Below, in pieces: positions 1 through 21,176 of a stretch of DNA of 39,017 bases (positions within the stretch are counted from its first letter, which is position 1; each line of letters opens with the position of its first letter). The notes under the pieces are model-generated. The model did no database searches and was not told the DNA's origin. It saw only the letters and a list, made by a program, of their open reading frames with translations. Origin of the DNA: a phage. The DNA lies in the sequence record PZ168289.1, one strand, 5' to 3'. A program made the position numbers and the translations under genes.

Positions 1-2
1 AT

Positions 3-446
3 TTACCCACGGTTAATCTCCTTAGTTGTTACGATGTCTACCGCCCCAGAAACATGCTTGACACGAGAATACCAGTCAAGACCCCAACGCTTGCACTCTT
101 CGTCTATGATGTGCCTGACAGTCTCAAGAACCTTGCGGGAGGACTGCGAGTCACGACGAATAGCGACGATTGAAAGGTCAAGACCGGGAGTCGGTCGGTG
201 CCAAGATGCGGTAGCCAGCATGTAGAGATACGCTACTGGTTGACCTGAGACATCATAGATTGTGTACTCTTCACCCGCGAACTCGTCAGCCATACGGTAA
301 GTATGAGCCTTGAAGTCCTCGAATGACTTGAAGTTAGACTGCCCGTCTTCCCAGAGGCGACAAGCGCACATGTGGCGACCTTCGCGTGAGTTGAGATATG
401 GTAGCATTGTCTTACCCCATGTTGACGCCAGAGGCTCGCATAGCAC
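3..446 (-). CDS. hypothetical protein in gene-7 position (gp7-like virion/host-range protein); 3' end runs off the window start
   Basis: Track ORF open to the window edge; lies directly downstream of the gp6.7-like gene on the coding strand, as gene 7 does in T7; no motif recognised. Confidence 0.4.
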   Translation of the reverse strand: MLCEPLASTWGKTMLPYLNSREGRHMCACRLWEDGQSNFKSFEDFKAHTYRMADEFAGEEYTIYDVSGQPVAYLYMLATASWHRPTPGLDLSIVAIRRDSQSSRKVLETVRHIIDEECKRWGLDWYSRVKHVSGAVDIVTTKEINRG

Positions 447-636
447 GGCTAACTGACGATGTATCTTTAGGTGTAGACTCCTTCTTGACCTTCAGGTCTT
501 TTATACCTTTGGTCTCGTTGGTGTCCACATCCGATTCAGCCCCGATGTCAACTGACGCAACTTCCTCACTCAGAGGTGCTGGTTCAGGTGCTTGGACCGA
601 AGGCTTCGGAGTGCTAATCTTTGGACTGAAACACAT
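412..636 (-). CDS. gp6.7-like small virion protein
   Basis: N-terminus MCFSPKISTPK and acidic middle resemble T7 gp6.7 (recalled); position after gene 6.5. Confidence 0.65.
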   Translation of the reverse strand: MCFSPKISTPKPSVQAPEPAPLSEEVASVDIGAESDVDTNETKGIKDLKVKKESTPKDTSSVSRAMRASGVNMG

Positions 637-650
637 AGTCCCTCCTACAG

Positions 651-923
651 TTAATCAAACTGAACGGTATCTTTCAGCTCACGACGCATAGCAATCGCAG
701 AGTCGAGAGTGTCAGAGCAATACTGGAGACCCTTGATAAACCCGGCAATGAACGCATCGCTGTAGCCCTGCTGCTTGAGGAGACTGATAGCTCCCATCTT
801 CTCAGCGTAGCTTGCGTTGAACAATACGTGCATGAACTGGATGGCAGACTGGGAGATGTTAGGGACATCAAGTCTTTCTTCCTGTAACTGCTTAACAACG
901 TTTTCAATAGCATTAATCGCCAT
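651..923 (-). CDS. hypothetical protein (gene 6.5 position)
   Basis: 90-aa ORF directly downstream of a phage promoter at 985-1007; synteny only. Confidence 0.55.
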   Translation of the reverse strand: MAINAIENVVKQLQEERLDVPNISQSAIQFMHVLFNASYAEKMGAISLLKQQGYSDAFIAGFIKGLQYCSDTLDSAIAMRRELKDTVQFD

Positions 924-984
924 CTTGAATCTCCTCTTTAAGTTAAGACTAAAGTCTATCTTATAGTCATATCTTAGGTCCTAA

Positions 985-1007
985 AGTCCCTATAGTGATA
1001 GTTTAGT
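985..1007 (-). promoter_or_regulatory. phage RNAP promoter (gene 6.5 upstream)
   Basis: Plus strand CCTATAGTGATAGTTTAG at 989-1006 = minus 5'-CTAAACTATCACTATAGG-3', same -7..+2 core as T7 CACTATAGG. Confidence 0.75.
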
Positions 1008-1133
1008 GTTTCACCTATGGATGACTGTTGGATTTATAGGATATGACTATCGGTTAGACTCAGTGTTTAGGACGGTTGTTCGACCCGAACCACTTGTACA
1101 TGCAGTAAATGGCCAGAAGTCCGACCCAGTAAA

Positions 1134-2000
1134 TTACATGGATGGTGTCCACAGGATGACCTCCTTGGACTTAGGGTCGTAGTCGGAGGCTCGACAAATA
1201 CGAGCTACCTGAGCTTGGACCAGAAGTTCCTCCTCGGTCATCCCAGCTTTAGCAGCCAGAGTCACCATGCAGTCCCACAACGTCATGTCTTCACGCTTCG
1301 GATACTTCTTCCACTCAGTCTTAATCTGGCCTTTGTTCTTACCAGTCTTAAGCTCACGGCTCTCCTGCACGAAGTAGTATGGCTCGTCAAGGAACGCACG
1401 AGTAGTGTCCTCACCCATCCCCGGAATACCGCCGTAGCCATCTGTAGTGTCACCCTTGATGGTCTGCTCCATGTGCCAGTAGTCTGCCTCGGCAGTCGTA
1501 TGACTCAGGATTTCACCAGTGGTTAACCAGAAGAACTCACAGTTCGGGATTGTCTTGAAGTCCTTATCACAGGACACCAGAACCGCATGGTCACATCCGA
1601 CAATCTGAGGTCGGGTCCCGATGATACCCATACAGTCATCACCCTCAAGCGTAGGACGCAGGAAGCTATTGAACCGTTGGTCAGCCATCACTTCGGCTAC
1701 GAACTTCTTGTAACCTACAGGCTTGCGAGAACCTTTACGGTTGGCCTTATAGGTAGGAAGAACGTCCTTACGCCAGTTATTATCGTCAGTAAAGCACATC
1801 ACAATCTTAGCGTCTTTCCACGCCTTACGCTTCTTAACGATTTCAGCGATGGTGTTCTCAAGGATACGGCGAGCCTTCTCGTGGTCGCAGATAAGGGTCC
1901 AGATGTCATCACCCCAGTCTGTCTCGTCCTCAGCAGCAGCCATAGATGAAAACACTAAGTAGTCACCATCTAACACAAGAGCTATTTTCTTTTCGCTCAT
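1134..2000 (-). CDS. 5'-3' exonuclease (T7 gp6-like, FEN/XPG family)
   Basis: Strong similarity to T7 gp6 (LVLDGDYLVF, PVGYKKF, CDKDFKTIPNC, WDCMV..AKAGMTEEEL); start moved to ATG 2000 (MSEKK) with GGAGG 7 nt upstream; track start 2054 is GTG. Confidence 0.9.
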   Translation of the reverse strand: MSEKKIALVLDGDYLVFSSMAAAEDETDWGDDIWTLICDHEKARRILENTIAEIVKKRKAWKDAKIVMCFTDDNNWRKDVLPTYKANRKGSRKPVGYKKFVAEVMADQRFNSFLRPTLEGDDCMGIIGTRPQIVGCDHAVLVSCDKDFKTIPNCEFFWLTTGEILSHTTAEADYWHMEQTIKGDTTDGYGGIPGMGEDTTRAFLDEPYYFVQESRELKTGKNKGQIKTEWKKYPKREDMTLWDCMVTLAAKAGMTEEELLVQAQVARICRASDYDPKSKEVILWTPSM

Positions 2001-2206
2001 AGACAGCCTCCGTGTTGGTTCAGGAACTTGGTGCCAGCGGCGGTAATCTCCCACGCACCGTTGTTACGACCATCCATAGACAGGCAGCTTAGATGTCCAC
2101 GACTCGCAGCCTCAGCCACCAGTGCAGCGTTGTTGCGCACATAGTTTGACTGGAAGGTCTTCGGGCAGGACTTAAGGGCCGCTAGGACCCGTAAGTATTC
2201 GCTCAT
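1997..2206 (-). CDS. gp5.7-like small protein
   Basis: 69 aa, same size and position as T7 gp5.7; GAGG upstream; stop overlaps exonuclease start. Confidence 0.55.
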   Translation of the reverse strand: MSEYLRVLAALKSCPKTFQSNYVRNNAALVAEAASRGHLSCLSMDGRNNGAWEITAAGTKFLNQHGGCL

Positions 2207-2487
2207 TGCTTGACCTCGAATCGCAGGTTGGACACACCTAACTGGCCATCACCAAAGGCGTCTACCAGTTCTTCCTTGATGTGCTTCTTGGCGACAATTT
2301 CAATGGCAGACTCAGGGCCTGACTCGATTGCTGCTTTGACCAGAGCCAACTGAAGCCCATCCAACTTCTCACCATCAGCGTAGGCTTTAGTCATCTCAGC
2401 CAGTTGGCGACACACGGTCTCTTCTGCCTTTGAGTTAACAACCATCTTCAGGTCAAAACTCACACGAATACGTTTAGTAATAGCCAT
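2203..2487 (-). CDS. gp5.5-like protein (H-NS binding in T7)
   Basis: Resembles T7 gp5.5 (GEKLDG..KKHIKEELVD.FGDGQL); start at ATG overlapping DNAP stop (TAATG); track start 2505 is likely too long. Confidence 0.7.
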   Translation of the reverse strand: MAITKRIRVSFDLKMVVNSKAEETVCRQLAEMTKAYADGEKLDGLQLALVKAAIESGPESAIEIVAKKHIKEELVDAFGDGQLGVSNLRFEVKQ

Positions 2488-4655
2488 TAGTGACACTCCT
2501 TCCACGTTGGTCCAATCTTACCTTCGGTATCAAGGACACATTTAAAGTTATAGAACTCACCCACCTTACGCATAGCAAGCTGAGCAATCTTGACTACTTC
2601 TTCAGCAATCTCCTGAGTACGACACGCAATCTGCAATTCATCATGCACCCAAGCCATGTACGCAAAGTCACCTTCCCAGCCGTGAACATACCCGGCCTCT
2701 TCGAGCATACGTTCAGTCTCGACAATCCAGTGCTTACAGACTACCGCACCATCTCCTTGAAGTAAGGCGTTCAGTGCTGAGTGCGGCGACCGGATGTGGA
2801 TACGGCGACCATCAAGTCCACGCAACCAACGGCGTTTCCACTTAACGATATTCTCACCGTCCACCCACTTAGAGTCTGAGATTAACGTATTGCTCACAGC
2901 TTCCCTGAGGTCTTTGATGGCTGGTGTACCCTCAATGAATTTCTTCATGAGAGCTGAACCTTCCTTCTTCCCACCGCCTACTATCAGTCCAATCTTAGCG
3001 GCCCCTGCACCGTACAGGAACGCATAGATGAACGTCTTAGCGTTGTTACGGAAAGCATCATGGTCGTGGCTCGACTTATCGCGTGGGACGTTAGGTGCTA
3101 ACCCAGCGTTTACTGCGTTGGCCCAGTGGATGTCACCTTCGACCACAGTCTTCGCATATGCACCACCATCAAACGGAGCCGCTCTGTTCCCAAGACAACG
3201 AAGCTCAAGACCTGAAGCATCCACACCCACTTGAATCCAAGGGTCTGGCTTACCATCCGTCTTGTTCCAAGCTGCACCGAAAGCACCACGGCAAATCTCA
3301 CCATACGGAGCACCGTTAGCAGGGACCTGAGCCATGTTTGGTGAACTGTGAGTCGCACGTCCGGTTACTGCCCCGCATGGGTTGATTGAACCGTGCATAC
3401 GTCCGTCTGGACCTACAAGTTTCAACCATGCGTTCTTACCTTCAGCCGCCTGACCTATGCGCTTCTGGACTACCAGATACTCACGGACCAGCTCTACGCA
3501 AGCCTGAGCCTCTGCGTCTGGCAACTTAACGTGTTCTAACGTCTCGTCATCGACTACAGGTTTCCCTGTGTCAGTGAAGTCCACAGGCTCCCAGCCCCGC
3601 TCCATCAAGACTTTCGCTAAGTGGTCTCCGCTTCCCGGATTAAACTCAACGTAGGTGATAGGTGTGAACGGTGCTCCCTCCATCGTGTCTCGTGAGTCAA
3701 ACTCGCAAGGCTCCAGACCTAAGCGTTGAGCTTTGTTCTTCGGCTTCTTGAATACTGACCCGACCTTAGGGTACACGACTCGCGGATACTTCGGAAGGTC
3801 CTTGCCTGTCCGTGGGTGCTTGAAGAACTCCTTGCCTCCCTTTGGTGCGTACCAGCTACCGAAAGTCGAACGCAGCTTGTCCAGCAGTTCTGCACGTTTG
3901 ACGGTGAGTTCACGATATAAGCCTTCGACCATCTCGGTGTTCATCGGATAGCCGTTACGCTCCATCTTCGCACAGGTCCACGCAGCATCATGTTCCAGAC
4001 GCAACGCATAAATCTGGTCGAAAGCGAACTGTTCAGACTGGAAGTAATACTTGTCAGTCAGGAACTTCTTGAGCAACGCCAGCGTGACCACAACGTCTTG
4101 AACGTTATAGTCCAGCATCTCCTGAGACGGGAACAACCATTCGTCCCCAGCCTTATATTCGATACCTTCAGCCTTGCACTTGGCAACGTAATCGTGTTTG
4201 TATTCACCTTTCATCTCACCAAGACGATAGCCCCAAGCCTCAAGAGACTGACGTCCCATCATCTTAGGTGGCAGACGGCCAGATTTCACCGCTCCCATGT
4301 CTGAGAACTTAATGTTGGGATACATCAAGCGCCCCAGCACCAAGGTATCAATCATCTTGTGTTTCGGGAAGTTAAAGCGTTTCCCAAAGTACAGACGTTT
4401 CAGCTTGTCAATAGCCGGGACGTCATAATTGATACCGTTGTGGAATACCAGCATACCATCAGGTGATGCGGCAATCTCTTCCACTTTATGCACATACTCT
4501 TTGAAGCCACCGACGATACCGACCATCGGAGCTACCCCGTACTTGAGGGTCTCATTCGACTCGGCGTTAATCAGGACCCCACAGTGAAACTGGGAGACTG
4601 TATCAAGGAGACCGTTGGTCTCGATGTCAGACCCGTATACGTTACTTAAGTCCAT
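2487..4655 (-). CDS. DNA polymerase (T7 gp5-like family A polymerase with 3'-5' exonuclease)
   Basis: Near end-to-end similarity to T7 gp5 (SDIETNGLL, FHNG..YDVPA, DYNVQDVVVT, WVHDE, LDTEGK.GP.W); GGAGGA RBS before ATG 4655. Confidence 0.97.
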   Translation of the reverse strand: MDLSNVYGSDIETNGLLDTVSQFHCGVLINAESNETLKYGVAPMVGIVGGFKEYVHKVEEIAASPDGMLVFHNGINYDVPAIDKLKRLYFGKRFNFPKHKMIDTLVLGRLMYPNIKFSDMGAVKSGRLPPKMMGRQSLEAWGYRLGEMKGEYKHDYVAKCKAEGIEYKAGDEWLFPSQEMLDYNVQDVVVTLALLKKFLTDKYYFQSEQFAFDQIYALRLEHDAAWTCAKMERNGYPMNTEMVEGLYRELTVKRAELLDKLRSTFGSWYAPKGGKEFFKHPRTGKDLPKYPRVVYPKVGSVFKKPKNKAQRLGLEPCEFDSRDTMEGAPFTPITYVEFNPGSGDHLAKVLMERGWEPVDFTDTGKPVVDDETLEHVKLPDAEAQACVELVREYLVVQKRIGQAAEGKNAWLKLVGPDGRMHGSINPCGAVTGRATHSSPNMAQVPANGAPYGEICRGAFGAAWNKTDGKPDPWIQVGVDASGLELRCLGNRAAPFDGGAYAKTVVEGDIHWANAVNAGLAPNVPRDKSSHDHDAFRNNAKTFIYAFLYGAGAAKIGLIVGGGKKEGSALMKKFIEGTPAIKDLREAVSNTLISDSKWVDGENIVKWKRRWLRGLDGRRIHIRSPHSALNALLQGDGAVVCKHWIVETERMLEEAGYVHGWEGDFAYMAWVHDELQIACRTQEIAEEVVKIAQLAMRKVGEFYNFKCVLDTEGKIGPTWKECH

Positions 4656-4673
4656 GGTTAATCCTCCGCGTTT

Positions 4674-4722
4674 AGTCTAATCATAAAGGCCACTCTCGAT
4701 GTGAATGACCTTGAGTCTAGAC
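4674..4722 (-). other. conserved RNA hairpin element, copy i (putative RNase III site upstream of DNAP)
   Basis: Minus RNA UAGACUCAAGGUCAUUC..GAGUGGCCUUUAUGAUUAG; 10-11 bp stem with G-U pairs; shares flanks with copies ii and iii. Confidence 0.5.
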
Positions 4723-4905
4723 CTAGAAGTCTGTACGCAAGAAGTGATACATAAACTTCCGGTTAGCTTTCTTCCATGCCTTAGAGTCGAACCTCTGGTC
4801 TCCCAGAATGTTGGACAGGCAGGTTGCTTCATCACTCCACCATTTGTACATGAACCGATGGTAGCGAGCTTTAAGTTTTCGTAACATTAGAATGGAACCC
4901 TCCAT
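4723..4905 (-). CDS. hypothetical small basic protein (gene 4.x position)
   Basis: Sits between primase-helicase and DNAP; internal ATG at 4887 (MLRKLK...) has GGAGGG 10 nt upstream and may be the real start. Confidence 0.45.
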   Translation of the reverse strand: MEGSILMLRKLKARYHRFMYKWWSDEATCLSNILGDQRFDSKAWKKANRKFMYHFLRTDF

Positions 4906-4920
4906 TTATACTTCTCGTAA

Positions 4921-6624
<1,704 letters not shown>

Positions 6625-6652
6625 TCACTCCTTAATCACAAATGCGAACAAA

Positions 6653-6672
6653 GGGACAGGACTCATTGTCCC
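6653..6672 (-). other. hairpin GGGACA-(8 nt)-TGTCCC upstream of primase-helicase
   Basis: Perfect 6-bp inverted repeat next to the variant promoter-like motif. Confidence 0.35.
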
Positions 6673-6694
6673 ATCCCTAAGGTGATAGTTTAGG
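6672..6694 (-). promoter_or_regulatory. variant promoter-like motif upstream of primase-helicase
   Basis: CCTAAGGTGATAGTTTAG; minus -4/-3 are CT instead of TA; may be weak or non-functional. Confidence 0.35.
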
Positions 6695-6905
6695 CTTTGA
6701 AGAACTGAGCCAACTGGTCAGCTTTGGTGTCAGCTTGACGTGCCTTCATGCCAGCTTCCAGTGACGCTATTGTCAGCTTGTCAGCCAGAGCAGCAGCATC
6801 AGCCGCACTGTCAGCAGTCTTCTTTTCTACCTTTCGTTCCAGTACCGCAGCACGACGATAACCACGCACCACCAGACGACCAAGAAATTCAATAAGTTTA
6901 ATCAT
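6690..6905 (-). CDS. hypothetical protein (gene 3.8 position)
   Basis: 71-aa ORF with AAGGAG 9 nt upstream of ATG 6905; stop lies inside the variant promoter-like motif at 6672-6694. Confidence 0.6.
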   Translation of the reverse strand: MIKLIEFLGRLVVRGYRRAAVLERKVEKKTADSAADAAALADKLTIASLEAGMKARQADTKADQLAQFFKA

Positions 6906-6929
6906 TGAGTTATTCTCCTTTAGAGTTTA

Positions 6930-7388
6930 TTAACCACGGTCGGAAGTGACCAGTTCATTGGTAGACAGCCAGCGTTGCAAGTCGAAACTTGGACACGCCT
7001 TAGGTGCTACGTCATGGTGTGCTTTGATTTCTGCCTGAGGATACATGGACTTCAGGTCAGCCAGCTTGTTGCGCAGGGAGTTCATCTGGGCTGTAGTGAA
7101 GTTAGCTTCAAACTGACCCTTAGCGTTGATTCCACCTACAAGGCAGACGCCTACGGACTTGGAGTTCCAGTCCTTAACGTGTGACCCTACGACATTGACT
7201 GGGCGACCCTCTTCCACAGTGCCATCACGTTTGATGATAAAGTGGTAGCCTACGTCCAGCCAGCCTTGCTGCTTGTGCCACATACGGATGGTCTCTACCC
7301 CGATGTCCATCTCTGGCTTGGTAGCCGAACAGTGAACGAAGATAGCGTCAGTCCGGGACCGTGGGTTGAACTGTACCTTACTTACCAT
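6930..7388 (-). CDS. lysozyme / N-acetylmuramoyl-L-alanine amidase (T7 gp3.5-like)
   Basis: Near-identical blocks to T7 lysozyme (DAIFVHCSATKP, WLDVGYHFIIKRDGTVE, GVCLVGGI, APKACPSFDL, ELVTSDRG). Confidence 0.96.
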   Translation of the reverse strand: MVSKVQFNPRSRTDAIFVHCSATKPEMDIGVETIRMWHKQQGWLDVGYHFIIKRDGTVEEGRPVNVVGSHVKDWNSKSVGVCLVGGINAKGQFEANFTTAQMNSLRNKLADLKSMYPQAEIKAHHDVAPKACPSFDLQRWLSTNELVTSDRG

Positions 7389-7848
7389 TGTACACCACCA
7401 ATTCTACGACCACTAGATTCAGGTGCTGGGTGAAGCGCTGTGCGTCCGTGGTGTGCATCTGGAGACGCTTATGGTTGAAGACGTGTGAGTTGCTAATCTT
7501 CACGTAAACTTCTTCAGGCTTTCCGTGGACGATGAACGTCTGGCCTACACCAATCTTGTCGATGGTCAGGACTTCACGCTTCACAGTCACAGGCGGTACG
7601 CTCGAAGCTGGCAGGACTTGCGGTTTATCCTCTACGATTTCCTCAAGATGTTCTTTTAAAACCCACGCCCCCCACATACCGTCAGGCTGAGTGTCATAAC
7701 CTGCTGCTCCGTGTTTGTAGGCTCCACGCTCAGTGGATTCCACCAGAACATGTCCAGACGATGGTACAGGGTCTTTCGCACATTTCGTAACGATAGTACC
7801 TTTAGGCCACCCGTAGCCACTAACCTTAAGTCTATATTTCTGAGTCAT
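7378..7848 (-). CDS. orphan hypothetical protein inserted between endonuclease I and lysozyme
   Basis: 156-aa ORF; AGGAG 7 nt upstream of ATG 7848; start overlaps gp3 stop (TGATG); 3' end overlaps lysozyme start by 11 nt; no recognisable motif; T7 has no gene here. Confidence 0.6.
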   Translation of the reverse strand: MTQKYRLKVSGYGWPKGTIVTKCAKDPVPSSGHVLVESTERGAYKHGAAGYDTQPDGMWGAWVLKEHLEEIVEDKPQVLPASSVPPVTVKREVLTIDKIGVGQTFIVHGKPEEVYVKISNSHVFNHKRLQMHTTDAQRFTQHLNLVVVELVVYNGK

Positions 7849-8300
7849 CACTTAACTCCTTTCTTCTTGGGGATGAGGATACCTGAAGGCAGACGTACAG
7901 TCGCCTCTCGCAGCCACTCAACCGGGATGAACTTATCGGCATACTTATAGCCGTTCTTTTCGCACCATGCGCCATACGTGGTCGGAGACCCCTTGTATAA
8001 CTTGGAGCGGGAACTTGAGAACACGAACCGAATGTCTAACTCAGGGTGCTGTTCTTTAATCAATAGGTGCTTCTTACGGTCTTCCACTGCGAAGATTCCT
8101 TTGGTCTCCACAATTATTCCATTGGGCAATACAAAGTCTGGACAATAACTGTGTAGAGACTGAGGGATTGTGTATGCTATTTTATACATCTCGTATTCAG
8201 CCTTTACGCCATTCTTCTCCAGCCACTCTTGGTTCTTTGCCTCAAGACCAGACCTATATATTCCTACCGAATGTCCCCTGCTTATACTACGTGTAGCCAT
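7848..8300 (-). CDS. endonuclease I (T7 gp3-like Holliday junction resolvase)
   Basis: Strong similarity to T7 gp3 (YRSGLE, PDF.LPNGI.VETKG, DRKKHLLI.EQHPELDIR.VFSSS..KLYKGSPT.YG). Confidence 0.96.
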   Translation of the reverse strand: MATRSISRGHSVGIYRSGLEAKNQEWLEKNGVKAEYEMYKIAYTIPQSLHSYCPDFVLPNGIIVETKGIFAVEDRKKHLLIKEQHPELDIRFVFSSSRSKLYKGSPTTYGAWCEKNGYKYADKFIPVEWLREATVRLPSGILIPKKKGVK

Positions 8301-8731
8301 GTTTCTCTCCTTAGTATCTTACCTATTGTTGGCTGAGACACTCCGTAGATTGTGGCGAGCTGTCGCTGGGTAAGGCCAGAAGACCTAATTTCCTTGACTT
8401 TAGTATCAGTAAGTTTAGACATACCGCACTTCTCTCCCGGAACATGAGGAGGGTTTACACCGCGCCCCTTGTTACGCATGTCCTGAAGGTTATCCCTTTG
8501 GGTTCCTACAGTTAGATGCTCAGGGTTACAACATAGCGGAGTGTCACAAGTGTGTAGTAGAACACCATTTGGTTCTTCACCTGTAATCAGCTCGTAGGCT
8601 ACACGATGGGCAAGCATGGTTTTCCCATTATGCCTAATCTGACTGTAGCCATTGTTGTTAACGCAGCCAGTGAAAAGCCAGCAGCTACCCGAAACCCTGA
8701 GTCGCTGCTTGAGGCTTTCTATTGTAGCCAT
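8282..8731 (-). CDS. HNH homing endonuclease (copy 1 of 3)
   Basis: Cys-rich HNH motif (CW.FTGC, LAHRVAYEL, HTCD.PLCCNPEHL) plus C-terminal HTH-like tail; start overlaps SSB stop, end overlaps gp3 start. Confidence 0.85.
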   Translation of the reverse strand: MATIESLKQRLRVSGSCWLFTGCVNNNGYSQIRHNGKTMLAHRVAYELITGEEPNGVLLHTCDTPLCCNPEHLTVGTQRDNLQDMRNKGRGVNPPHVPGEKCGMSKLTDTKVKEIRSSGLTQRQLATIYGVSQPTIGKILRRETWLHVV

Positions 8732-9429
8732 TAGAAGTCGTAATCGCCACCAGAGCCAGAGTCGCCACCGCCTTCGGAACCATCATCACCGAAGTCATCG
8801 TCACCGAAGTCACCATCGGTTGACGCTTTGTAGCCAGTACCGAGGTCTTCATCATCACCCCAGCCACCATCGCCACCAGCACCATCACCTTTCCACTCCT
8901 TCAGTTCTACCAGAAGGCAGGACTCAAGCTGGAGCTTAACGCTTGCACCAGTCGCAGCGTTCCACTTGAACGGCAGGACTTTGAACTTGACCTTCAGCTT
9001 AGACCCAGCGCCAATATTCGGGACGTCACGGATGAGTTTAGCATCGGTGTCGTAGAACCGTAATACGATAGGCTCGGACTTGCCGTCTTTCAGGTAAGAC
9101 GCAAAGCATTTAAACTTCAGGGTAACAGTACCGTCACCATTCTCAATCCACGGCATGTCGCCTTCTCGTGGTTCAATAGGCTTCTTGCCACGCTGAACCT
9201 GAGGCGGGTTCTTCTCGTGGTCTGCGAGTGCTTTCGCATACGCATCGTCATGAATCTTCTGTAAGACATCAATCATCTTACGGACCTTCGGGTTGCTCAG
9301 GTCGAATGTCAGGTTAACCTTATGCTCACCACGCTCGTTAAACTTGGTGTCTGCTTTGTTCAGCCATGCGTAAGGCTCAACGATACCAGCTACCGGAGTG
9401 GTGAAAGTCTTCAGTTGCTCTTTAGCCAT
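8731..9429 (-). CDS. single-stranded DNA-binding protein (T7 gp2.5-like)
   Basis: 232 aa as in T7; conserved blocks (EPYAW, NPPQVQRGKKP, GDMPW..NGDGT.T.KFKC, WNAATGASVKLQLES.LLVEL) and acidic C-terminus ending DF. Confidence 0.96.
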   Translation of the reverse strand: MAKEQLKTFTTPVAGIVEPYAWLNKADTKFNERGEHKVNLTFDLSNPKVRKMIDVLQKIHDDAYAKALADHEKNPPQVQRGKKPIEPREGDMPWIENGDGTVTLKFKCFASYLKDGKSEPIVLRFYDTDAKLIRDVPNIGAGSKLKVKFKVLPFKWNAATGASVKLQLESCLLVELKEWKGDGAGGDGGWGDDEDLGTGYKASTDGDFGDDDFGDDGSEGGGDSGSGGDYDF

Positions 9430-9469
9430 CGGTGTAAATCTCCTAATTTAAAAGTTACGAACTGGACGT

Positions 9470-9492
9470 CTGTCCTACAGTGATAGTTTAGG
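9470..9492 (-). promoter_or_regulatory. phage RNAP promoter (SSB upstream)
   Basis: CCTACAGTGATAGTTTAG, one mismatch at -3; contains the gp2 stop codon. Confidence 0.6.
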
Positions 9493-9646
9493 CCTCAGGA
9501 CGAATCCGTCCGACCACAAACCCAGCGTCCTCATACTCTTGGGACTTCAAGGTAGCCTCTTCAAGAGACTTTGCGTACACCGGAACCTCGAAGGACTTAA
9601 CGCGACCCTCAAGCTCCACGATGTACTTCTTCTCTACGTCAGTCAT
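9488..9646 (-). CDS. gp2-like inhibitor of host RNA polymerase
   Basis: 52-aa ORF (below track threshold), hand-translated; FEVPVYA...AGF.VGRIRP resembles T7 gp2; TAA stop lies inside promoter 9470-9492. Confidence 0.55.
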
Positions 9647-9724
9647 AGACCACGCTCCTTCCATAAGTTGTAGAGCTGAAGGTAATCGACGTTACCTGTC
9701 TCCTCAAATTTTCTCTCAGCCCAC

Positions 9725-10060
9725 TCACTCGGCAGCATAGCACTTACCTTTATGTAGGTCGAACAGCTCCTGATAGAAGGCTGCTTTGTTCAGGTCCTTC
9801 TCCATAGTAGCCAGCTCTGACTTCTTACCAGCTCGGAGTCGATACTTCAGGACGTTACCCATGCAGAAACCACGGAACTCGCTGACAGTCATTGACCGCG
9901 CGATAATCTCAATGGATTCCACGCCGTCAAAGACCTGATAGTGTGACGGCTTGCGAACCCCGTCATCTTTACTACACGCGGCGATGATGCTGGTAACAGC
10001 ACCGCAGTCGCACGAACCGAAGCTAAGGACCGAGCGGCACCACTCCTTGTGCTTAGCCAT
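9725..10060 (-). CDS. gp1.7-like protein, C-terminal domain only (T7 gp1.7 is a nucleotide kinase)
   Basis: KPSHYQVFDGVESIEIIARSMTVSEFRGFCMGNVLKYRLRAGKKSELA matches the C-terminal half of T7 gp1.7; 111 aa vs 196 in T7; AAGGAGGTGG RBS. Confidence 0.8.
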   Translation of the reverse strand: MAKHKEWCRSVLSFGSCDCGAVTSIIAACSKDDGVRKPSHYQVFDGVESIEIIARSMTVSEFRGFCMGNVLKYRLRAGKKSELATMEKDLNKAAFYQELFDLHKGKCYAAE

Positions 10061-10313
10061 TTACCACCTCCTTCACGTACTCAATGAATAGACGAACGCG
10101 AGGCCACTTAGTGTAGACCACGGGTACATTGGTCTCACGCTTCTGGCGAGCCTCTTCAGCTTTGCCCGGAGTAATCAGAGCGAAGACTGTAGGTGACATC
10201 TTAACGGCCTTCCCGAAGTAGCCCAGCTTCTCGTTGCGCTTAATGCAAGCGAACGGGTTGTTTGACAGGTGGAAGGTACTGGAATAACGGTTGAACATTA
10301 AGTTCTTAAACAT
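10053..10313 (-). CDS. hypothetical protein (gene 1.5/1.6 position)
   Basis: 86-aa ORF with AAGGAGG RBS before ATG 10313, just downstream of promoter 10342-10364. Confidence 0.65.
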   Translation of the reverse strand: MFKNLMFNRYSSTFHLSNNPFACIKRNEKLGYFGKAVKMSPTVFALITPGKAEEARQKRETNVPVVYTKWPRVRLFIEYVKEVVNG

Positions 10314-10341
10314 GGTCGTCCTCCTTAGGTCGAAGTTATGG

Positions 10342-10364
10342 TTGTCCTATAGTGATAGCTTAGG
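10342..10364 (-). promoter_or_regulatory. phage RNAP promoter (gene 1.5/1.6 region)
   Basis: CCTATAGTGATAGCTTAG, one mismatch at -12; directly after the TE-like terminator. Confidence 0.65.
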
Positions 10365-10399
10365 GTCGGGCTGGTGGCCCAGACGATAGCTTGCTAGCA

Positions 10400-10437
10400 C
10401 AAAGCAAAGAAACCCAGCAGTCCGAAGACCACTGGGT
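10400..10437 (-). terminator. intrinsic terminator downstream of ligase (T7 TE-like)
   Basis: Minus RNA CCCAGUGGUC-UUCG-GACUGCUGGG followed by UUUCUUUGCUUU; position matches T7 TE after gene 1.3. Confidence 0.65.
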
Positions 10438-10555
10438 TGACGTTATAATGAATCTCTTAAGGCTACTGCCTCGGCTATGGTCTTGGCATATAGGACCACG
10501 CGCTCTCCGTTGACCACCTTCTTGATACAGTAAAGCTCTCGACCTTTCATCTACT

Positions 10556-11581
10556 TTAAATCTTGACTGTAGGATTATCCTCAGTTCCACGCCACTGGTC
10601 GAACGAGGGATGTCGCAATGAGCCATCTGGTGTCTCCTCCATGTAGGTAATCTGACAGGCCCACCCTTTGTAGTAATCTGGGTCCGACTTAACATTCTCC
10701 GTGAACTCGGACATAAGGGCGCGACTAATGTTAGTTGCGGAGACCTCCATCCCGTTCTCGAGCATAACGTCAAAGCCGATGACCATACCTTCGTTGGCTA
10801 GACCTTCTGTTCCCCACACCGGGAGAACAACGTGACCATCTGCCTCTTCACTTGGCTTCATCTTCCACATACCAGACTTCTTACCACGCTTGTATTTTCC
10901 CAGTGGGTCCTTGACTACCAGACCTTCATGTCCATCTGCTCGCTTCTCCTCGTACAAATCACGAAGAGACTCAAGGTTGAACACTGTATGACTCTCAGAG
11001 AGAACCCAGTCGATTTCCGGGAAGTATTTCTGAAGGAGAGGGACGATAGCTTCGGCCTTCAGGCGGGTTACGCTATGGATAGGACCTTCTGCTTTCGGGT
11101 CAGCAATGGTTGTCATGTCTACGACACCGTATACAACAACCTTAAGTCTTGACCGGGCTACCCAGAACGGGACCTTATTGCCTCGTCCCGGATAACATTC
11201 AGCGAACTCTTCGTTGCTAGTCTTCAGCCACTTCGTTCGGATGAGACCCGATGATGTGTTGAAGTCAACGCCTTTGACCATGACCTCTCCGTCAATCATC
11301 AGACCCACGCCTTCGTATCCAGCTTGACGTAGGAACCATCGCCAGTCAGCTTGGGTCCACGCATTCCCTAACTCAGAGTTCATCCACTCCAAGGCTGGAA
11401 GAGGTTTAGACTCACGGCTCAGCCAGTAGGTCTCACCTTCACGCAGTACCGGGAGGTTCAGACGCACACCGTCATACTTCACTTCAGCTTCCAGCGACCC
11501 TGCTGCTGCCAGTGCTTTCGTAACGCCTGACTCAGAGTAATCTACAGCTCGGTGTGGGTTAGTTTTGATAGTCGTTGTCAT
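10556..11581 (-). CDS. ATP-dependent DNA ligase (T7 gp1.3-like)
   Basis: Ligase motifs (EVKYDGVR, DGE.MVKGVDFNT.SGL.RTKW, EGHEGL.VKDP...YKRGKKSG.WKMKP, WACQI.YMEETPDGSLRHPSF); start set to ATG 11581 (MTTTIKTNP) overlapping gp1.2 stop. Confidence 0.95.
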   Translation of the reverse strand: MTTTIKTNPHRAVDYSESGVTKALAAAGSLEAEVKYDGVRLNLPVLREGETYWLSRESKPLPALEWMNSELGNAWTQADWRWFLRQAGYEGVGLMIDGEVMVKGVDFNTSSGLIRTKWLKTSNEEFAECYPGRGNKVPFWVARSRLKVVVYGVVDMTTIADPKAEGPIHSVTRLKAEAIVPLLQKYFPEIDWVLSESHTVFNLESLRDLYEEKRADGHEGLVVKDPLGKYKRGKKSGMWKMKPSEEADGHVVLPVWGTEGLANEGMVIGFDVMLENGMEVSATNISRALMSEFTENVKSDPDYYKGWACQITYMEETPDGSLRHPSFDQWRGTEDNPTVKI

Positions 11582-11844
11582 TATGATTTTCTCCATGTGT
11601 CGAGTTGGTCAGCGAGACCATTAAGGAAGTTGGTTGCAGTATTGTATAGTACGTCTTCATCGTAGTGTGCGAAGGACTCAAAAGCGAGTATGTTACCAGC
11701 TCGGTCCTCGACCCTGAGTCTCATACACTCTTGTCGTGACACATGGTCTTGAAACTCCTGAGATATGACAGCTAAGTCTAACTGATAAAGCCTGTTACAC
11801 GCTGCTTTGAAAGCGTTTAGGTTGCCACTATAAAGTCGGCCCAT
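11581..11844 (-). CDS. gp1.2-like protein (dGTPase inhibitor in T7)
   Basis: MGRLYSGNL.AFKAA.N.L.QLDLAVI closely matches the T7 gp1.2 N-terminus; same length. Confidence 0.9.
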   Translation of the reverse strand: MGRLYSGNLNAFKAACNRLYQLDLAVISQEFQDHVSRQECMRLRVEDRAGNILAFESFAHYDEDVLYNTATNFLNGLADQLDTWRKS

Positions 11845-11848
11845 AGCG

Positions 11849-12028
11849 TTATGCTCCTACGAAATACTTCTCTTGGTTTACCAGAGAGTCTTTGCCTTCA
11901 GCGTTACGGAAAGCACCCTTGACACCACCGCCACGCTTGGTCTTGTTCAGCTTGCGGCCCTTCGGAATGTAATCTTCAGTCTGCTGACGTTCACGGATGC
12001 GCTCGAAGTTGATAGTGTTCTGATACAT
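11849..12028 (-). CDS. gp1.1-like small basic protein
   Basis: 59-aa ORF hand-translated (MYQNTINFERIRERQQTEDYIPKGRKLNKTKRGGG...); KGRKLNKTKR matches T7 gp1.1; GGAG RBS; downstream of promoter 12100-12122. Confidence 0.7.
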   Translation of the reverse strand: MYQNTINFERIRERQQTEDYIPKGRKLNKTKRGGGVKGAFRNAEGKDSLVNQEKYFVGA

Positions 12029-12058
12029 GTTGTAGCTCCAGTTGTTTAGGTTATAGGG

Positions 12059-12103
12059 TTAATCATGAAGGCCACGACTTTAAGTCATGACCTTGAGTCT
12101 AAT
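12059..12103 (-). other. conserved RNA hairpin element, copy ii (putative RNase III site, R1.1-like position)
   Basis: Minus RNA AGGUCAUGAC-UUAAA-GUCGUGGCCU; compensatory changes relative to copies i and iii. Confidence 0.5.
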
Positions 12104-12122
12104 CCTATAGTGATAGTTTAGG
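12100..12122 (-). promoter_or_regulatory. phage RNAP promoter (gene 1.1 upstream)
   Basis: Perfect CCTATAGTGATAGTTTAG; transcript begins with the conserved hairpin element at 12059-12103. Confidence 0.75.
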
Positions 12123-12196
12123 TCAACCTCTTCTGCGTTGGATTAAAGTGAATACTGCTAGTGCTCCCAGCCACAAGGCCAGTAACTGTAGGTGTG

Positions 12197-12397
12197 TCAT
12201 TTGGTTGCCGCCTCTTTAAGGACTTGCTCGTGCGTCTGCTCCACCTGCTTAACCAGCCACTTGAACGGGACGTTAAGCTGCTTTGACATCTCGGTAGGGA
12301 TGACCGTGGTCTTCACCAGACCCTTGCCGTTGTGCTCTGTTACGGTCACGATTTGAGTCCCACCATTAACGCCAGTCTGCTTGTGTGCAAATTTCAT
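12197..12397 (-). CDS. hypothetical protein between RNAP and gene 1.1
   Basis: 66 aa from ATG 12397 (MKFAHK...) with AGGAGAG RBS; no T7 counterpart recalled at this position. Confidence 0.5.
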   Translation of the reverse strand: MKFAHKQTGVNGGTQIVTVTEHNGKGLVKTTVIPTEMSKQLNVPFKWLVKQVEQTHEQVLKEAATK

Positions 12398-12413
12398 AAC
12401 TCTCTCTCTCCTG

Positions 12414-15095: not shown

Positions 15096-15163
15096 ACTTA
15101 AAGTCCTTGTTATTAGTCTTTCACTTAAGTCTCTTTGGTCTTTCACTTGGAGTCTTAGACCTT

Positions 15164-15186
15164 GAGTCCTATAGTGATAGTTAAGT
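15164..15186 (-). promoter_or_regulatory. phage RNAP promoter directly upstream of the RNAP gene
   Basis: CCTATAGTGATAGTTAAG at 15168-15185, about 70 nt upstream of RNAP ATG 15095. Confidence 0.65.
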
Positions 15187-15191
15187 CATAA

Positions 15192-15452
15192 TTACTTGCA
15201 TATCAGAGGGTTAGCGTGAAGATGACTGAAGTCACCGTGAGTCGTGTGCTTGATGGTTGACCGTTGGTCTATCGCCTTCCAGCCTGAGACCAGAAGTTTA
15301 CCATCGTCGGTGATTGGTCGTCCACCATACGCCAGACACATCAGCTCGGACTTATGGCCCTCGGCCCGGAGTCTTGCTTGCAGAACCCGGTCTCGCTCCT
15401 GCTGTTGACGTGCGGTGTGACTTGATGGTTTGTGTGTGTATACGGTTTTCAT
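15192..15452 (-). CDS. hypothetical early protein
   Basis: 86-aa ORF directly upstream of RNAP; start overlaps the stop of the preceding ORF. Confidence 0.5.
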   Translation of the reverse strand: MKTVYTHKPSSHTARQQQERDRVLQARLRAEGHKSELMCLAYGGRPITDDGKLLVSGWKAIDQRSTIKHTTHGDFSHLHANPLICK

Positions 15453-15735: not shown

Positions 15736-15805
15736 AGTTAACTCCTATTAATGCAAGTGGTAATCTTTGAGGCCACCTATCAGTCGATGACCTCTCGTCT
15801 ATCAC

Positions 15806-15931
15806 TCAGTACCCGCCTGTCAGTGTTATGGTTAGGCTATGGTGATTAGCCACGTAGCAAGCCCCGCGCTTCATCATCTCGTAGCACCCATCGTAGAACG
15901 CCTGTTCACTGCTATAAGTTATCTGGTACAT
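15806..15931 (-). CDS. hypothetical early micro-protein (track ORF 15806..15994 shortened)
   Basis: Track start 15994 is GTG; internal ATG at 15931 follows a GGGAG motif and sits just after the stop of the upstream 49-aa ORF. Confidence 0.35.
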   Translation of the reverse strand: MYQITYSSEQAFYDGCYEMMKRGACYVANHHSLTITLTGGY

Positions 15932-15932
15932 G

Positions 15933-16767: not shown

Positions 16768-16799
16768 AGTTATATCCTCTCAAAGTTAATTGTGTGTAT

Positions 16800-16850
16800 G
16801 TTAGTGACTATCAATCAGGCCGCTATGAGTCTAACGACCTGTAGTTAATC
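16800..16850 (-). other. early-region hairpin element A (putative RNase III site upstream of ocr)
   Basis: Minus RNA AGGUCG-UUAGACUCAUAG-CGGCCU (plus 16817-16840); related to element B. Confidence 0.35.
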
Positions 16851-17025
16851 ACTGGCAATTGAACGCATGGTCCAAGCACTTATTGAACGCGTCCTGCGCT
16901 TGCTCACGGCTATCCCACTCAGTCTTAGACAATCCGTAGATTATCACATGCTTAGTGCGATACTTATAGTCGTTAGCCGTATACCAGATTACGCCCAGTT
17001 CTTCGTTCATCGCTATGATTTTCAT
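16849..17025 (-). CDS. putative first early ORF (58 aa)
   Basis: Hand-translated MKIIAMNEELGVIWYTANDYKYRTKHVIIYGLSKTEWDSREQAQDAFNKCLDHAFNCQ; weak RBS; flanked by two related hairpin elements. Confidence 0.3.
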   Translation of the reverse strand: MKIIAMNEELGVIWYTANDYKYRTKHVIIYGLSKTEWDSREQAQDAFNKCLDHAFNCQ

Positions 17026-17039
17026 AATGTTACCCTATT

Positions 17040-17100
17040 TAAGTTAGTGACTATCAGTCAAGGCCTTCAGATGTAGACTCAAAGACCCTGTAGTTAGTCG
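17040..17100 (-). other. early-region hairpin element B (in leader of first early ORF)
   Basis: Minus RNA CAGGGUCUU-(14 nt loop)-AAGGCCUUG (plus 17059-17090); ~55 bp related to element A, including an internal direct repeat. Confidence 0.35.
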
Positions 17101-17205
17101 CTATCGGCGCACATTAAGAGTTTATCCAGATTGTTAAAGAGCATTCGCGTTGGCTGTCGTCGCCGTGCTATCCCGTTTCAGTGTTGGGACTCACTAATCT
17201 TGCTT

Positions 17206-17242
17206 GCCGTATAAGTTACTACAGTCAAACCAGCTTGTCAAT
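17206..17242 (-). promoter_or_regulatory. candidate host sigma70 early promoter 3
   Basis: Minus-strand TTGACA (plus 17236-17241), 17-nt spacer, TAACTT (plus 17213-17218); layout resembles T7 A2/A3. Confidence 0.35.
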
Positions 17243-20810: not shown

Positions 20811-20865
20811 AGTTGCCCTCCCGGTTTATCAGATTTTCACGTGGAGTCGCCTCCACTAGTTAGTG

Positions 20866-20910
20866 TTAACCATAAAGGCCACTACATATAGTAATGACCT
20901 TGAGTCTAAC
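20866..20910 (-). other. conserved RNA hairpin element, copy iii (putative RNase III site, R18.5-like position)
   Basis: Minus RNA AAGGUCAUUAC-UAUAU-GUAGUGGCCUU between small terminase and Rz; a second small hairpin GTGGAG-TCGC-CTCCAC at 20841-20856. Confidence 0.5.
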
Positions 20911-20912
20911 AC

Positions 20913-21176
20913 TTATTGAACACCATACCCTGTGTCATTATCCTCAGTCGCTGAAAGCACCTTATCGTACTCTGCGTTCAGGGCCTCCATATCAGCCAGC
21001 GTCTTCTCGTCCACAGACACCTTGCTTAACACAAAGTTGTGACGAGCAAGCAGCTTCTCAATGGCGTTGTAGAGCTGAGGTGAACGCTTAGAGTCGTCAC
21101 GTAAGTCTTGCAGCATAAGTCGAGCACGTTCAGTATCCAGCATTAAGAGGAACTTCTCTAAGTCCATCTGCGTCAT
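20913..21176 (-). CDS. terminase small subunit (T7 gp18 position)
   Basis: 87-aa ORF between holin and Rz, size and position of T7 gp18; stop/start overlap with holin. Confidence 0.7.
   Translation of the reverse strand: MTQMDLEKFLLMLDTERARLMLQDLRDDSKRSPQLYNAIEKLLARHNFVLSKVSVDEKTLADMEALNAEYDKVLSATEDNDTGYGVQ

What the first reader, a model, noticed from the sequence alone, without database searches (positions are those of the whole stretch)
4674..4722. Family of conserved hairpins with compensatory base changes (copies at 4674-4722, 12059-12103, 20866-20910)
Three ~45-bp intergenic elements share flanking sequence (minus RNA UAGACUCAAGGUCAU … GUGGCCUUUAUGAUUA) and fold into a 10-11 bp stem whose variable top base pairs covary (UUC/GAG, UGAC/GUCG, UUAC/GUAG). 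Covariation argues for a functional RNA structure. Two copies sit where T7 has RNase III sites R1.1 and R18.5, so these are probably RNase III processing or mRNA-stabilising hairpins. Related hairpins occur at 16800-16850 and 17040-17100.
Basis: partly seen in the sequence, partly recalled or inferred. Interest (0 to 1): 0.55.

Follow-up and report, generated by a model that had tools for sequence, protein, structure and literature searches.

The report
T7-type RNase III processing hairpins
These conserved hairpins are the well-known RNase III cutting signals that T7-like phages place between genes to process and stabilise their long mRNAs, so the finding is correct but ordinary.

Summary
The window is a whole K1F-like (Kayfunavirus) T7-group genome with its genes on the minus strand.

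- **What the copies are.** The three copies are near-identical in sequence and fold to phage T7's RNase III sites R1.1, R0.5 and R4.7. Each has a roughly 9-bp lower stem, an asymmetric 4-nt/5-nt internal loop and a 10-12-bp upper stem.
- **Model search.** The 17039-17106 hairpin resembles them only loosely.
- **Independent validation.** The same model recovers 8 of the 10 stem-loops annotated as "RNase III recognition site" in the T3 record.
- **Covariation.** Across 64 sites in 12 sources, all on the sense strand, 93.6% of cells pair and 17 of 19 pairs show compensatory changes.
- **Synteny.** The sites match R1.1, R4.7 and R18.5 by position, and R0.5 and R0.3 by similarity and early-region placement.

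The likely mechanism is a single host RNase III cut in the 3' side of the internal loop. This leaves a protective 3' hairpin on the upstream mRNA. Cleavage itself was not tested. Novelty: already known. Interest is low.

The parts
12048..12110 (-). Site B, the R1.1 equivalent. It has a lower stem, a 4/5 internal loop (ACUC / CAUGA) and a 12-bp upper stem. Predicted RNase III cut is between 12065 and 12064 (CAU^GA). It lies upstream of a gp1.1 homologue (ORF 11849-12028).
   Evidence: 69.2 bits, E 1e-15. Fold -22.8 kcal/mol, z -5.7. The downstream ORF is 45% identical to T7 gp1.1. The cut position is inferred by homology to T7 sites.
12102..12120 (-). Phage RNA polymerase promoter (TAAACTATCACTATAGGAT, inferred +1 at 12105). 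It overlaps the 5' arm of site B's lower stem, the same arrangement as T3 phi1.1/R1.1.
   Evidence: One of 11 promoter matches, all on the minus strand, with 0 expected. In T3, promoter 5984-6006 overlaps stem_loop R1.1 6003-6053.
4666..4728 (-). Site A, the R4.7 equivalent. It lies between the stop of a 60-aa ORF (4723-4905) and the DNA polymerase gene 5 start (4655). Predicted cut is between 4683 and 4682 (UAU^GA).
   Evidence: 66.6 bits. Fold with 4/5 internal loop. ORFs. T3 R4.7 sits directly upstream of gene 5.
20855..20917 (-). Site C, the R18.5 equivalent. It starts at the gene 18 stop codon (20913-20915) and lies upstream of gene 18.5 (start 20810). Predicted cut is between 20872 and 20871 (UAU^GG).
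   Evidence: 72.3 bits. It is present at the same place in 22 of 23 close IMG/VR relatives. Orthologues carry compensatory changes.
15749..15810 (-). It lies in the early region between small ORFs (stop at 15806-15808, next ATG at 15735). Predicted cut is between 15766 and 15765 (AAA^GA).
   Evidence: 61 bits. Its lower stem is almost identical to that of T7 R0.5. ORFs.
16796..16857 (-). Site E, R0.3-like and a divergent member. It lies between the gene 0.2 stop (16849-16851) and the gene 0.3 start (16767).
   Evidence: 28.8 bits, E 5e-5, and it was not in the training set. T7 R0.3 scores 28.0 bits and T3 R0.3 scores 42.9 bits. Fold -23.2 kcal/mol, z -5.2.
17039..17106 (-). Site F, a loosely related two-helix hairpin upstream of gene 0.2. 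It shares UAACUACAGG...GAUAGUCACUAAC with site E. Its membership in the family is uncertain.
   Evidence: Only 5.3 bits. It folds into a similar shape at -20.2 kcal/mol, z -3.2.

Best explanation
These are the RNase III processing signals of a T7-group phage. The window is a K1F-like Kayfunavirus genome transcribed entirely from the minus strand.

**Structure.** Each signal is a hairpin of about 62 nt in an intergenic spacer of the polycistronic mRNA. It has a lower stem of about 9 bp whose sequence is free to vary. Above that is an asymmetric internal loop, 4 nt on the 5' side and 5 nt on the 3' side. At the top is an upper stem whose first 8 bp (AAGGUCAU/GUGGCCUU, with two G.U wobbles) are nearly invariant. 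The top pairs and the loop vary freely.

**Proposed mechanism (inferred).** Host RNase III binds the upper stem. The invariant pairs correspond to the enzyme's proximal, middle and distal contact boxes. Because of the internal loop, the enzyme cuts only one strand, about 3 nt 3' of GGCCUU (UAU^GA). The upstream mRNA then ends in a stable hairpin that protects it from 3' exonucleases. The downstream mRNA gets a defined 5' end close to its ribosome-binding site.

**Shown here:** the sequences, the folds, the covariation, the strand specificity, the synteny, and equivalence to annotated or experimentally known T7 and T3 sites.

**Inferred:** that cleavage happens, exactly where it happens, and what it does to the mRNAs.
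For: - **Genome identity.** The window is 94-95% identical to Kayfunavirus genomes over gene 1.
- **Match to T7.** It is near-identical to T7 R1.1, R0.5, R4.7, R1.3 and R18.5.
- **Shape.** The consensus fold is a 9-bp lower stem, a 4/5 internal loop and a 10-bp upper stem. This is the architecture that PMC6121014 describes for R1.1: an asymmetric 4 nt/5 nt internal loop with a primary site cleaved in vivo and in vitro.
- **Model hits in the window.** Model R1 gives five minus-strand hits at 28.8-72.3 bits. The opposite strand scores 15-17 bits.
- **Validation on T3.** The model recovers 8 of 10 annotated 'RNase III recognition site' stem-loops. Seven are at E<1e-3. R1 is weak at E 0.64. R3.8 and R13 are not found. 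There is no other T3 hit below 1e-3.
- **Strand and covariation.** All 64 hits in 12 sources are on the sense strand. 93.6% of cells pair, against 31-49% when partners are slid. 17 of 19 pairs show compensatory change. The covariation score is 0.559 against at most 0.125 in the slid controls.
- **Independent folds.** Single-sequence folds recover the upper helix in 62/64 and the lower helix in 60/64. The sense strand is more stable than the antisense in 62/64, at -20.9 against -13.5 kcal/mol.
- **Orthologues.** Site C is present after gene 18 in 22/23 close relatives, with compensatory changes.
- **Synteny.** gp1.1 lies downstream of site B. Sites start at or just after upstream stop codons.
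- **Specificity.** 100 unrelated viral loci that carry the bare 14-nt core pattern give hits only in 3 contigs, which carry several sites each and look T7-like.
- **Literature.** T7 polycistronic transcripts are processed by RNase III at specific sites (PMC6938266). Single-strand cleavage leaves 3' hairpins that act as stability determinants, and the enzyme contacts proximal and distal boxes (PMC3867540).
Against: - No transcript-end or cleavage data exist for this phage, and the K1F-type records searched carry no RNase III annotation.
- RNase III is not essential for T7 growth (PMC6938266), so the benefit is quantitative rather than absolute.
- This genome shows no ORF large enough to be the gp0.7 kinase that stimulates RNase III in T7. 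It also has no matches to R1, R1.3, R3.8 or R6.5. It therefore uses fewer sites than T7.
- Alignments A2 and A3 were fitted to the model, which favours pairing. The single-sequence folds partly offset this bias.
- The exact cut positions rest on my recollection of the Dunn & Studier 1983 coordinates.
Confidence: 0.9

Rival explanations
1. The hairpins are passive mRNA stabilisers or structural punctuation and are not cleaved by RNase III in this phage. They would block 3' exonucleases or organise translation without any processing.
For: They are stable sense-strand hairpins placed right after stop codons. This genome lacks an ORF the size of the 0.7 kinase. T7 can grow without RNase III (PMC6938266).
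Against: A passive hairpin needs no invariant internal loop and no invariant 8-bp box. Here those parts are nearly identical to sites that RNase III is known to cut in T7. Without an endonucleolytic cut, an internal hairpin in a polycistronic RNA is not at a 3' end and so cannot protect one.
Confidence: 0.05
2. The elements act on DNA. They would be palindromes serving as a replication origin, as recombination or module-exchange linkers, or as targets of DNA-sensing systems.
For: DNA copies of T7 RNase III sites trigger the Lamassu DdmABC defence as palindromic DNA (PMC11707656). T7's primary origin lies near R1.1 (from my own knowledge).
Against: - The structure is strand-specific. Conserved G.U wobbles become A.C mismatches on the other strand.
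- The antisense strand is less stable in 62/64 sites.
- The model scores 15-17 bits on the other strand against 69-72 bits on the sense strand.
- All 64 sites are on the transcribed strand.
- There is no clear sign of homogenisation among paralogues. The nearest neighbour is a paralogue in only 4.5 of 39 sites, against 6.0 expected.
Confidence: 0.02
3. They are transcription terminators or pause sites for host or phage RNA polymerase.
For: They are G+C-containing hairpins in intergenic positions.
Against: None of the sites in the scanned half of the window (1-20000: A, B, D, E, F) is called terminator-like. The real early-terminator-like hairpin with a T-run is elsewhere, at 10411-10438. Site C was not scanned, but reading its sequence shows UAUGGUUAACAC after the upper stem and no T-run. 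In general the hairpins are followed by UAUGAUUA and the lower-stem arm rather than a U-tract. Essential genes continue downstream of each site.
Confidence: 0.02

Closest known systems
Phage T7 RNase III processing signals R1.1, R0.5, R4.7, R1.3 and R18.5 (Dunn & Studier 1983; R1.1 is the standard model substrate of E. coli RNase III)
   Same: They share the core sequence ACUCAAGGUC...GGCCUU(U/C)AUGAUU. They share the 4/5 asymmetric internal loop and the two-helix layout. They sit on the same strand and in the same intergenic placement, at syntenic positions before gene 1.1, before gene 5 or 4.7, and between genes 18 and 18.5.
   Different: The apical pairs, the loops and the lower-stem sequences differ, in a compensatory way. 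This genome has 5 clear sites against T7's 10. It has no R1, R1.3, R3.8 or R6.5 matches and no kinase-sized 0.7 gene.
Phage T3 annotated 'RNase III recognition site' stem-loops (NC_003298)
   Same: The model containing the window sites recovers T3 R0.3, R0.5, R1.1, R1.3, R4.7, R6.5 and R18.5, plus R1 weakly. As in the window, T3's phi1.1 promoter overlaps the R1.1 lower stem, and R4.7 sits directly before gene 5.
   Different: T3 R3.8 and R13 belong to a different, short type that the model does not match. T3 R6.5 carries a promoter inside its loop, and no such site was found in the window.
Other bacterial and phage RNase III substrates (rRNA operon stems, lambda N-leader and sib, rncO)
   Same: All are double-helical hairpins recognised through proximal and distal boxes (PMC3867540).
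   Different: Most are long regular helices cut on both strands and often lead to decay. The T7-type signal has an internal loop that restricts cutting to one strand and leaves a stabilising 3' hairpin.
Pseudomonas phage gh-1 'putative RNase III recognition sites' R1-R13
   Same: They are intergenic stem-loops with the same proposed role in a T7-group genome.
   Different: None matches the model at E<1. They do not share the enterobacterial-phage core sequence.

Membership tests
T7-group RNase III processing signal | Hairpin with a lower stem, an asymmetric (4 nt/5 nt) internal loop and an upper stem of about 10 bp | tested here: met
   The consensus fold and the individual centroid folds show it. 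Single-sequence folds recover the helices in 62/64 (upper) and 60/64 (lower) sites. PMC6121014 defines the architecture for R1.1.
T7-group RNase III processing signal | Conserved core sequence shared with experimentally cleaved T7 sites (ACUCAAGGUC / GGCCUUUAUGAUU) | tested here: met
   Alignment A1 with T7 R1.1, R0.5, R4.7, R1.3 and R18.5. T7 sequences were read.
T7-group RNase III processing signal | Scores like independently annotated sites under a common sequence-and-structure model | tested here: met
   Window sites score 28.8-72.3 bits. The model finds 8/10 annotated T3 sites at 15.9-66 bits and the untrained T7 sites R6.5, R0.3 and R1.
T7-group RNase III processing signal | Sense-strand, intergenic location at syntenic positions in the transcription map | tested here: met
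   All 64 hits are on the sense strand. A gp1.1 homologue lies downstream of site B. Site C orthologues follow gene 18 in 22/23 relatives.
T7-group RNase III processing signal | Base pairing maintained in evolution by compensatory change | tested here: met
   17/19 pairs carry compensatory changes and 93.6% of cells are paired, against 31-49% in the slid controls. Within orthologues, 3 pairs do so. Caveat: both alignments were fitted to the model.
T7-group RNase III processing signal | Site-specific cleavage by host RNase III in vivo or in vitro | not testable with these tools
   No transcript-end data for this phage were available. No held paper links K1F-type phages with RNase III sites.
Intrinsic (rho-independent) terminator | G+C-rich stem followed directly by a U/T run | tested here: not met
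   The scan of 1-20000 calls none of sites A, B, D, E or F. It does call a terminator-like hairpin at 10411-10438. Site C lies outside the scanned range and was judged by reading its sequence, which has no T-run after the stem.
Strand-symmetric DNA palindrome / cruciform element | Equivalent structure on both strands and orientation independence | tested here: not met
   G.U wobbles make up 193 of 1201 paired cells, and the antisense is less stable in 62/64 sites. Opposite-strand model scores are 15-17 bits against 69-72 bits. All copies share one orientation.
Any Rfam 15 family | Match to a curated covariance model | tested here: not met
   There is no match at gathering score or at E<=1. This is uninformative, because T7 R1.1 itself matches nothing in Rfam.

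The most novel reading that the evidence does not exclude
The primary sequence of the internal loop and of the first 8 upper-stem pairs is almost invariant across paralogous sites. It is also almost invariant across genera, from T7 to K1F-like phages to an Aeromonas phage. RNase III tolerates degenerate boxes in its cellular substrates, so this may be more constraint than RNase III alone imposes. A second reader of the same motif is not excluded. It could be a phage or host RNA-binding factor, or a role of the cleaved hairpin itself as a small RNA. It could also be a DNA-level cost or benefit, such as sensing by Lamassu-type defences.
Probability: 0.06. Interest if true: 0.45.

Novelty: already known. 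Interest (0 to 1): 0.1.

Why it matters
The value is mainly for annotation. K1F-type (Kayfunavirus) records, many of them phage-therapy candidates, leave these sites unmarked or overlay them with dubious small ORFs. Marking them gives the mRNA processing map and flags miscalled ORFs. It also identifies DNA palindromes that can trigger Lamassu/DdmABC defence (PMC11707656). No open question is advanced, because the element type, its structure and its enzyme have been known since the 1970s-80s.

Tried and rejected
1. **IMG/VR pattern scan.** I scanned for the bare core TCAAGGTC-N-GGCCTT. Nearly all of the 120 stretches were chance matches. Only 3 of the 100 loci searched held real sites. This was useful only as a specificity control.
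2. **Concerted evolution or gene conversion among paralogous sites.** Not supported. The nearest neighbour is a paralogue for 4.5 of 39 sites, against 6.0 expected. The within-genome identity excess is only 0.016, reached by 40 of 2000 permutations.
3. **Rfam.** No family matches, even for T7 R1.1 itself, so the absence says nothing.
4. **T7 records.** NC_001604 and V01146, as held, list no RNase III features. The cut coordinates for T7 therefore come from my memory of Dunn & Studier 1983. I checked only that each falls 3 nt 3' of the GGCCUU arm in the sequence.
5. **Literature.** The K1F genome paper, the Court 2013 review and Panayotatos & Truong 1985 are not held. No held paper links K1F with RNase III sites.
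6. **Equivalents of the other T7 sites.** I looked for equivalents of R1, R6.5, R13 and R3.8.
   - Upstream of gene 1 the fold is not better than shuffles (z -1.1).
   - Upstream of gene 6.5 there is nothing (z -0.8).
   - At the phi13 promoter there is an inverted repeat around the promoter that resembles T3's R13. It is outside the model.
7. **gh-1.** Its annotated putative sites do not match the model.

Full report
**What the window is.** The ORF order on the minus strand runs from portal, scaffold and capsid through gene 19. It then covers the early region, RNA polymerase gene 1 (12414-15146) and DNA polymerase gene 5 (2487-4655). This is a complete, circularly permuted T7-group genome. 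The gene 1 region is 94-95% identical to Kayfunavirus genomes such as K1F, Vec13 and PDP351P4. Eleven phage-type promoters (TAAACTATCACTATAGGGA-like) all lie on the minus strand, so the minus strand is the sense strand throughout.

**Checking the observation.** The motif CTCAAGGTCAT-N-TGGCCTT occurs three times, all on the minus strand, at the stated places. None is expected by chance. The upper stems are 10, 12 and 11 bp. They share an invariant base AAGGUCAU/GUGGCCUU, which includes two G.U wobbles, and their top pairs differ in a compensatory way (and direct reading). A looser search for the 3' half found a fourth copy at 15761-15776.

**What it is.**
- T7's own sequence at its RNase III sites is nearly the same. 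R1.1 reads ACAAACUCAAGGUCAUUCGCAAGAGUGGCCUUUAUGAUUGACC. R0.5, R1.3, R4.7 and R18.5 share the core.
- I aligned the four window copies with five T7 sites (A1). This gave a consensus of a 9-bp lower stem, an internal loop of 4 nt (5' side) and 5 nt (3' side), and a 10-bp upper stem. Nine of the 19 pairs already showed compensatory change.
- This is the architecture described for the model substrate R1.1. PMC6121014 describes it as an asymmetric 4 nt/5 nt internal loop, located between T7 genes 1.0 and 1.1, with a primary site cleaved in vivo and in vitro.
The lower stem covaries even more than the upper one.

**Model search.** Covariance model R1 was built from A1 and run over the whole window with filters off. 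It gives five minus-strand hits:

| Window coordinates | Bits | Note |
|---|---|---|
| 20855-20917 | 72.3 | |
| 12048-12110 | 69.2 | |
| 4666-4728 | 66.6 | |
| 16796-16857 | 28.8 | E 5e-5; not in the training set |

The opposite strand of the strongest sites scores only 15-17 bits. The 17039-17106 hairpin scores 5.3 bits. It folds into a similar two-helix shape and shares flanks with 16796-16857.

**Independent validation.** The T3 record annotates ten stem-loops as 'RNase III recognition site'.
- R1 finds R0.5, R4.7, R1.1, R18.5, R6.5, R0.3 and R1.3 at E<1e-3, and R1 weakly at E 0.64.
- It misses R3.8 and R13, and finds nothing else in T3 at E<1e-3.
- In T7 it also finds the untrained sites R6.5, R0.3 and (weakly) R1.
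- In K1F it finds the same five positions as in the window.
- In gh-1 it finds nothing.

As a specificity control, I searched 100 unrelated IMG/VR loci selected only for carrying the 14-nt core pattern. Hits came from just three contigs, each with several sites and apparently T7-like.

**Covariation and strand specificity.**
- Across the window, T7, K1F, T3, K11, Cronobacter phages Dev2 and GW1, Aeromonas phage T7-Ah, Kluyvera phage Kvp1 and three IMG/VR contigs, R1 finds 64 sites. All are on the sense strand.
- On that alignment 93.6% of cells pair, against 31-49% when partners are slid by 1-3 columns.
- 17 of 19 pairs have changes on both sides.
- The covariation score is 0.559, against at most 0.125 in the slid controls, and no shuffle out of 500 reaches it.
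- The alignment is model-fitted, so I also folded each sequence alone. The upper helix is recovered in 62/64 and the lower helix in 60/64. The sense strand is more stable than its complement in 62/64, with means of -20.9 and -13.5 kcal/mol.
- For orthologues of one site, I fetched the DNA downstream of gene 18 in IMG/VR relatives. 22 of 23 close relatives carry the site starting at the stop codon. The top pairs switch from U-A/A-U to C-G/U-G, and one core C-G switches to U-A.
- Twelve more distant gp18 relatives (51-56% identity) show no hit.

**Position.**
- Site B (12048-12110) lies just upstream of an ORF that is 45% identical to T7 gp1.1. A phage promoter (12102-12120, inferred +1 at 12105) overlaps its lower stem, as in T3 phi1.1/R1.1.
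- Site A (4666-4728) lies between a small ORF's stop codon and gene 5, like T3 R4.7.
- Site C (20855-20917) begins at the gene 18 stop and precedes gene 18.5.
- Sites D and E lie between early genes. E is directly upstream of gene 0.3.
- None of the sites in the scanned range 1-20000 (A, B, D, E, F) is terminator-like. A T7 TE-like terminator lies at 10411-10438, after the ligase gene. Site C was not scanned, but its sequence has no T-run after the stem.

**Mechanism.** Established knowledge supplies the steps.
- T7 polycistronic RNAs are cut by host RNase III at specific sites (Dunn & Studier 1983, cited in PMC6938266).
- RNase III contacts a 4-bp proximal box and a 2-bp distal box, with a middle box between them (PMC3867540).
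- Internal loops restrict cleavage to one strand, and the resulting 3' hairpins act as stability determinants (PMC3867540).

The invariant 8 bp at the base of the upper stem is the part of the helix that the enzyme contacts. The pairs beyond it only need to pair, so they covary. That explanation is my inference.

From my recollection of the T7 coordinates (R1.1 5887, R0.5 1468, R1.3 6448, R4.7 13892, R18.5 36856), each cut falls 3 nt 3' of the GGCCUU/GGUCUU arm in the T7 sequence. By homology, the window cuts would fall at 4683/4682, 12065/12064, 20872/20871 and 15766/15765. None of this was measured for this phage.

**Rivals.**
- *A DNA-level palindrome.* This is contradicted by the strand asymmetry and the uniform orientation. 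DNA copies of T7 RNase III sites can nevertheless be sensed by Lamassu DdmABC (PMC11707656).
- *Terminators.* Excluded and by the lack of a U-tract after the hairpins.
- *Passive, uncleaved hairpins.* This does not explain the invariant loop and box.
- *Homogenisation among paralogues.* Not clearly supported.

**Comparison and novelty.** These are members of the T7-group RNase III processing-signal family. They are equivalent to R1.1, R4.7 and R18.5 by position, and to R0.5 and R0.3 by similarity and early-region placement. There are two differences from T7. This genome has fewer sites, with no matches to R1, R1.3, R3.8 or R6.5. It also has no ORF large enough to be the 0.7 kinase in the early region. 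The element is present in at least 247 phage records by BLAST. Among the 60 hits listed, none is annotated as an RNase III site, and some are overlaid by 'hypothetical protein' calls. Rfam has no family even for T7 R1.1.

**Verdict.** The element is already known and of low interest beyond annotation.

Noticed in passing
window 31140-31200 (-): The phage promoter before gene 13 (31165-31183) is enclosed by a 10-bp inverted repeat, GGGCCUAUAG...CUAUAGGCCC (fold -19.1 kcal/mol, z -1.7). This resembles T3's annotated R13 stem-loop, which overlaps promoter phi13. It may be a second, non-canonical type of RNase III site that model R1 does not cover.
   Followed up: partly
window 15166-15184 (-): A phage-type promoter (TTAACTATCACTATAGGAC) sits about 20 nt upstream of the phage RNA polymerase gene 1 (start 15146). 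T7 has no phage promoter there, whereas gh-1 is annotated with one. The hairpin that follows it is no better than shuffled sequence (z -1.1), and there is no R1-type site.
   Followed up: partly
window 17589-17666: A perfect-looking tandem array, 13 nt x 6 copies (GTGACTTATGGTT on the plus strand), in the non-coding region near the presumed genome end, upstream of the early promoters.
   Followed up: partly
window 10411-10438 (-): A strong terminator-like hairpin with a T-run (AACCCAGTGGTCTTCGGACTGCTGGGTT TCTTTGCTTT) about 120 nt downstream of the DNA ligase gene. It is the positional equivalent of the T7 early terminator TE.
   Followed up: no
window 35715-35830 (-): The leader after the promoter before the major capsid gene folds strongly (-31.6 kcal/mol, z -3.5). 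It starts with a GGGAGACC...GGUUUCCC stem at the transcript 5' end, reminiscent of the T7 phi10 leader hairpin.
   Followed up: partly
window 6653-6692 (-): A degenerate promoter (TAAACTATCACCTTAGGGA, 2 mismatches) is followed at once by an 11-bp hairpin, GGGAUGGGACA...UGUCCCUUU, plus a T-rich tail. The scan flags it as terminator-like. It lies just upstream of the primase/helicase gene 4.
   Followed up: no
window 15150-16240 (-): Every ORF between gene 0.3 and gene 1 is under 90 aa, so this phage appears to lack a gp0.7-type protein kinase, the enzyme that stimulates RNase III in T7. The Kayfunavirus relatives Dev2 and GW1 do carry an annotated kinase gene.
   Followed up: no
L001 18499-18580; L123 17132-17212; L125 17769-17842: In T7, T3 and K11 the R6.5 RNase III site carries the whole phi6.5 promoter inside its apical loop. 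The window has no equivalent site before gene 6.5 (region 940-1010, z -0.8).
   Followed up: partly
L002 (K1F AM084414) 12743-12892; L127 (T7-Ah) 8152-8331: Some annotated small ORFs in relatives overlap the hairpins (K1F gp4.4; a T7-Ah hypothetical protein). They may be miscalled or may have wrong start codons.
   Followed up: no
L127 (Aeromonas phage T7-Ah), 9 sites: Five of the nine sites in this phage share the compensatory change A-U to G-C at the second pair of the upper stem (CAGGGUC...GGCCCU). Three have an apex identical to that of T7 R1.1. This could reflect adaptation to the Aeromonas RNase III or local duplication. The overall test for homogenisation among paralogues was negative.
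   Followed up: partly
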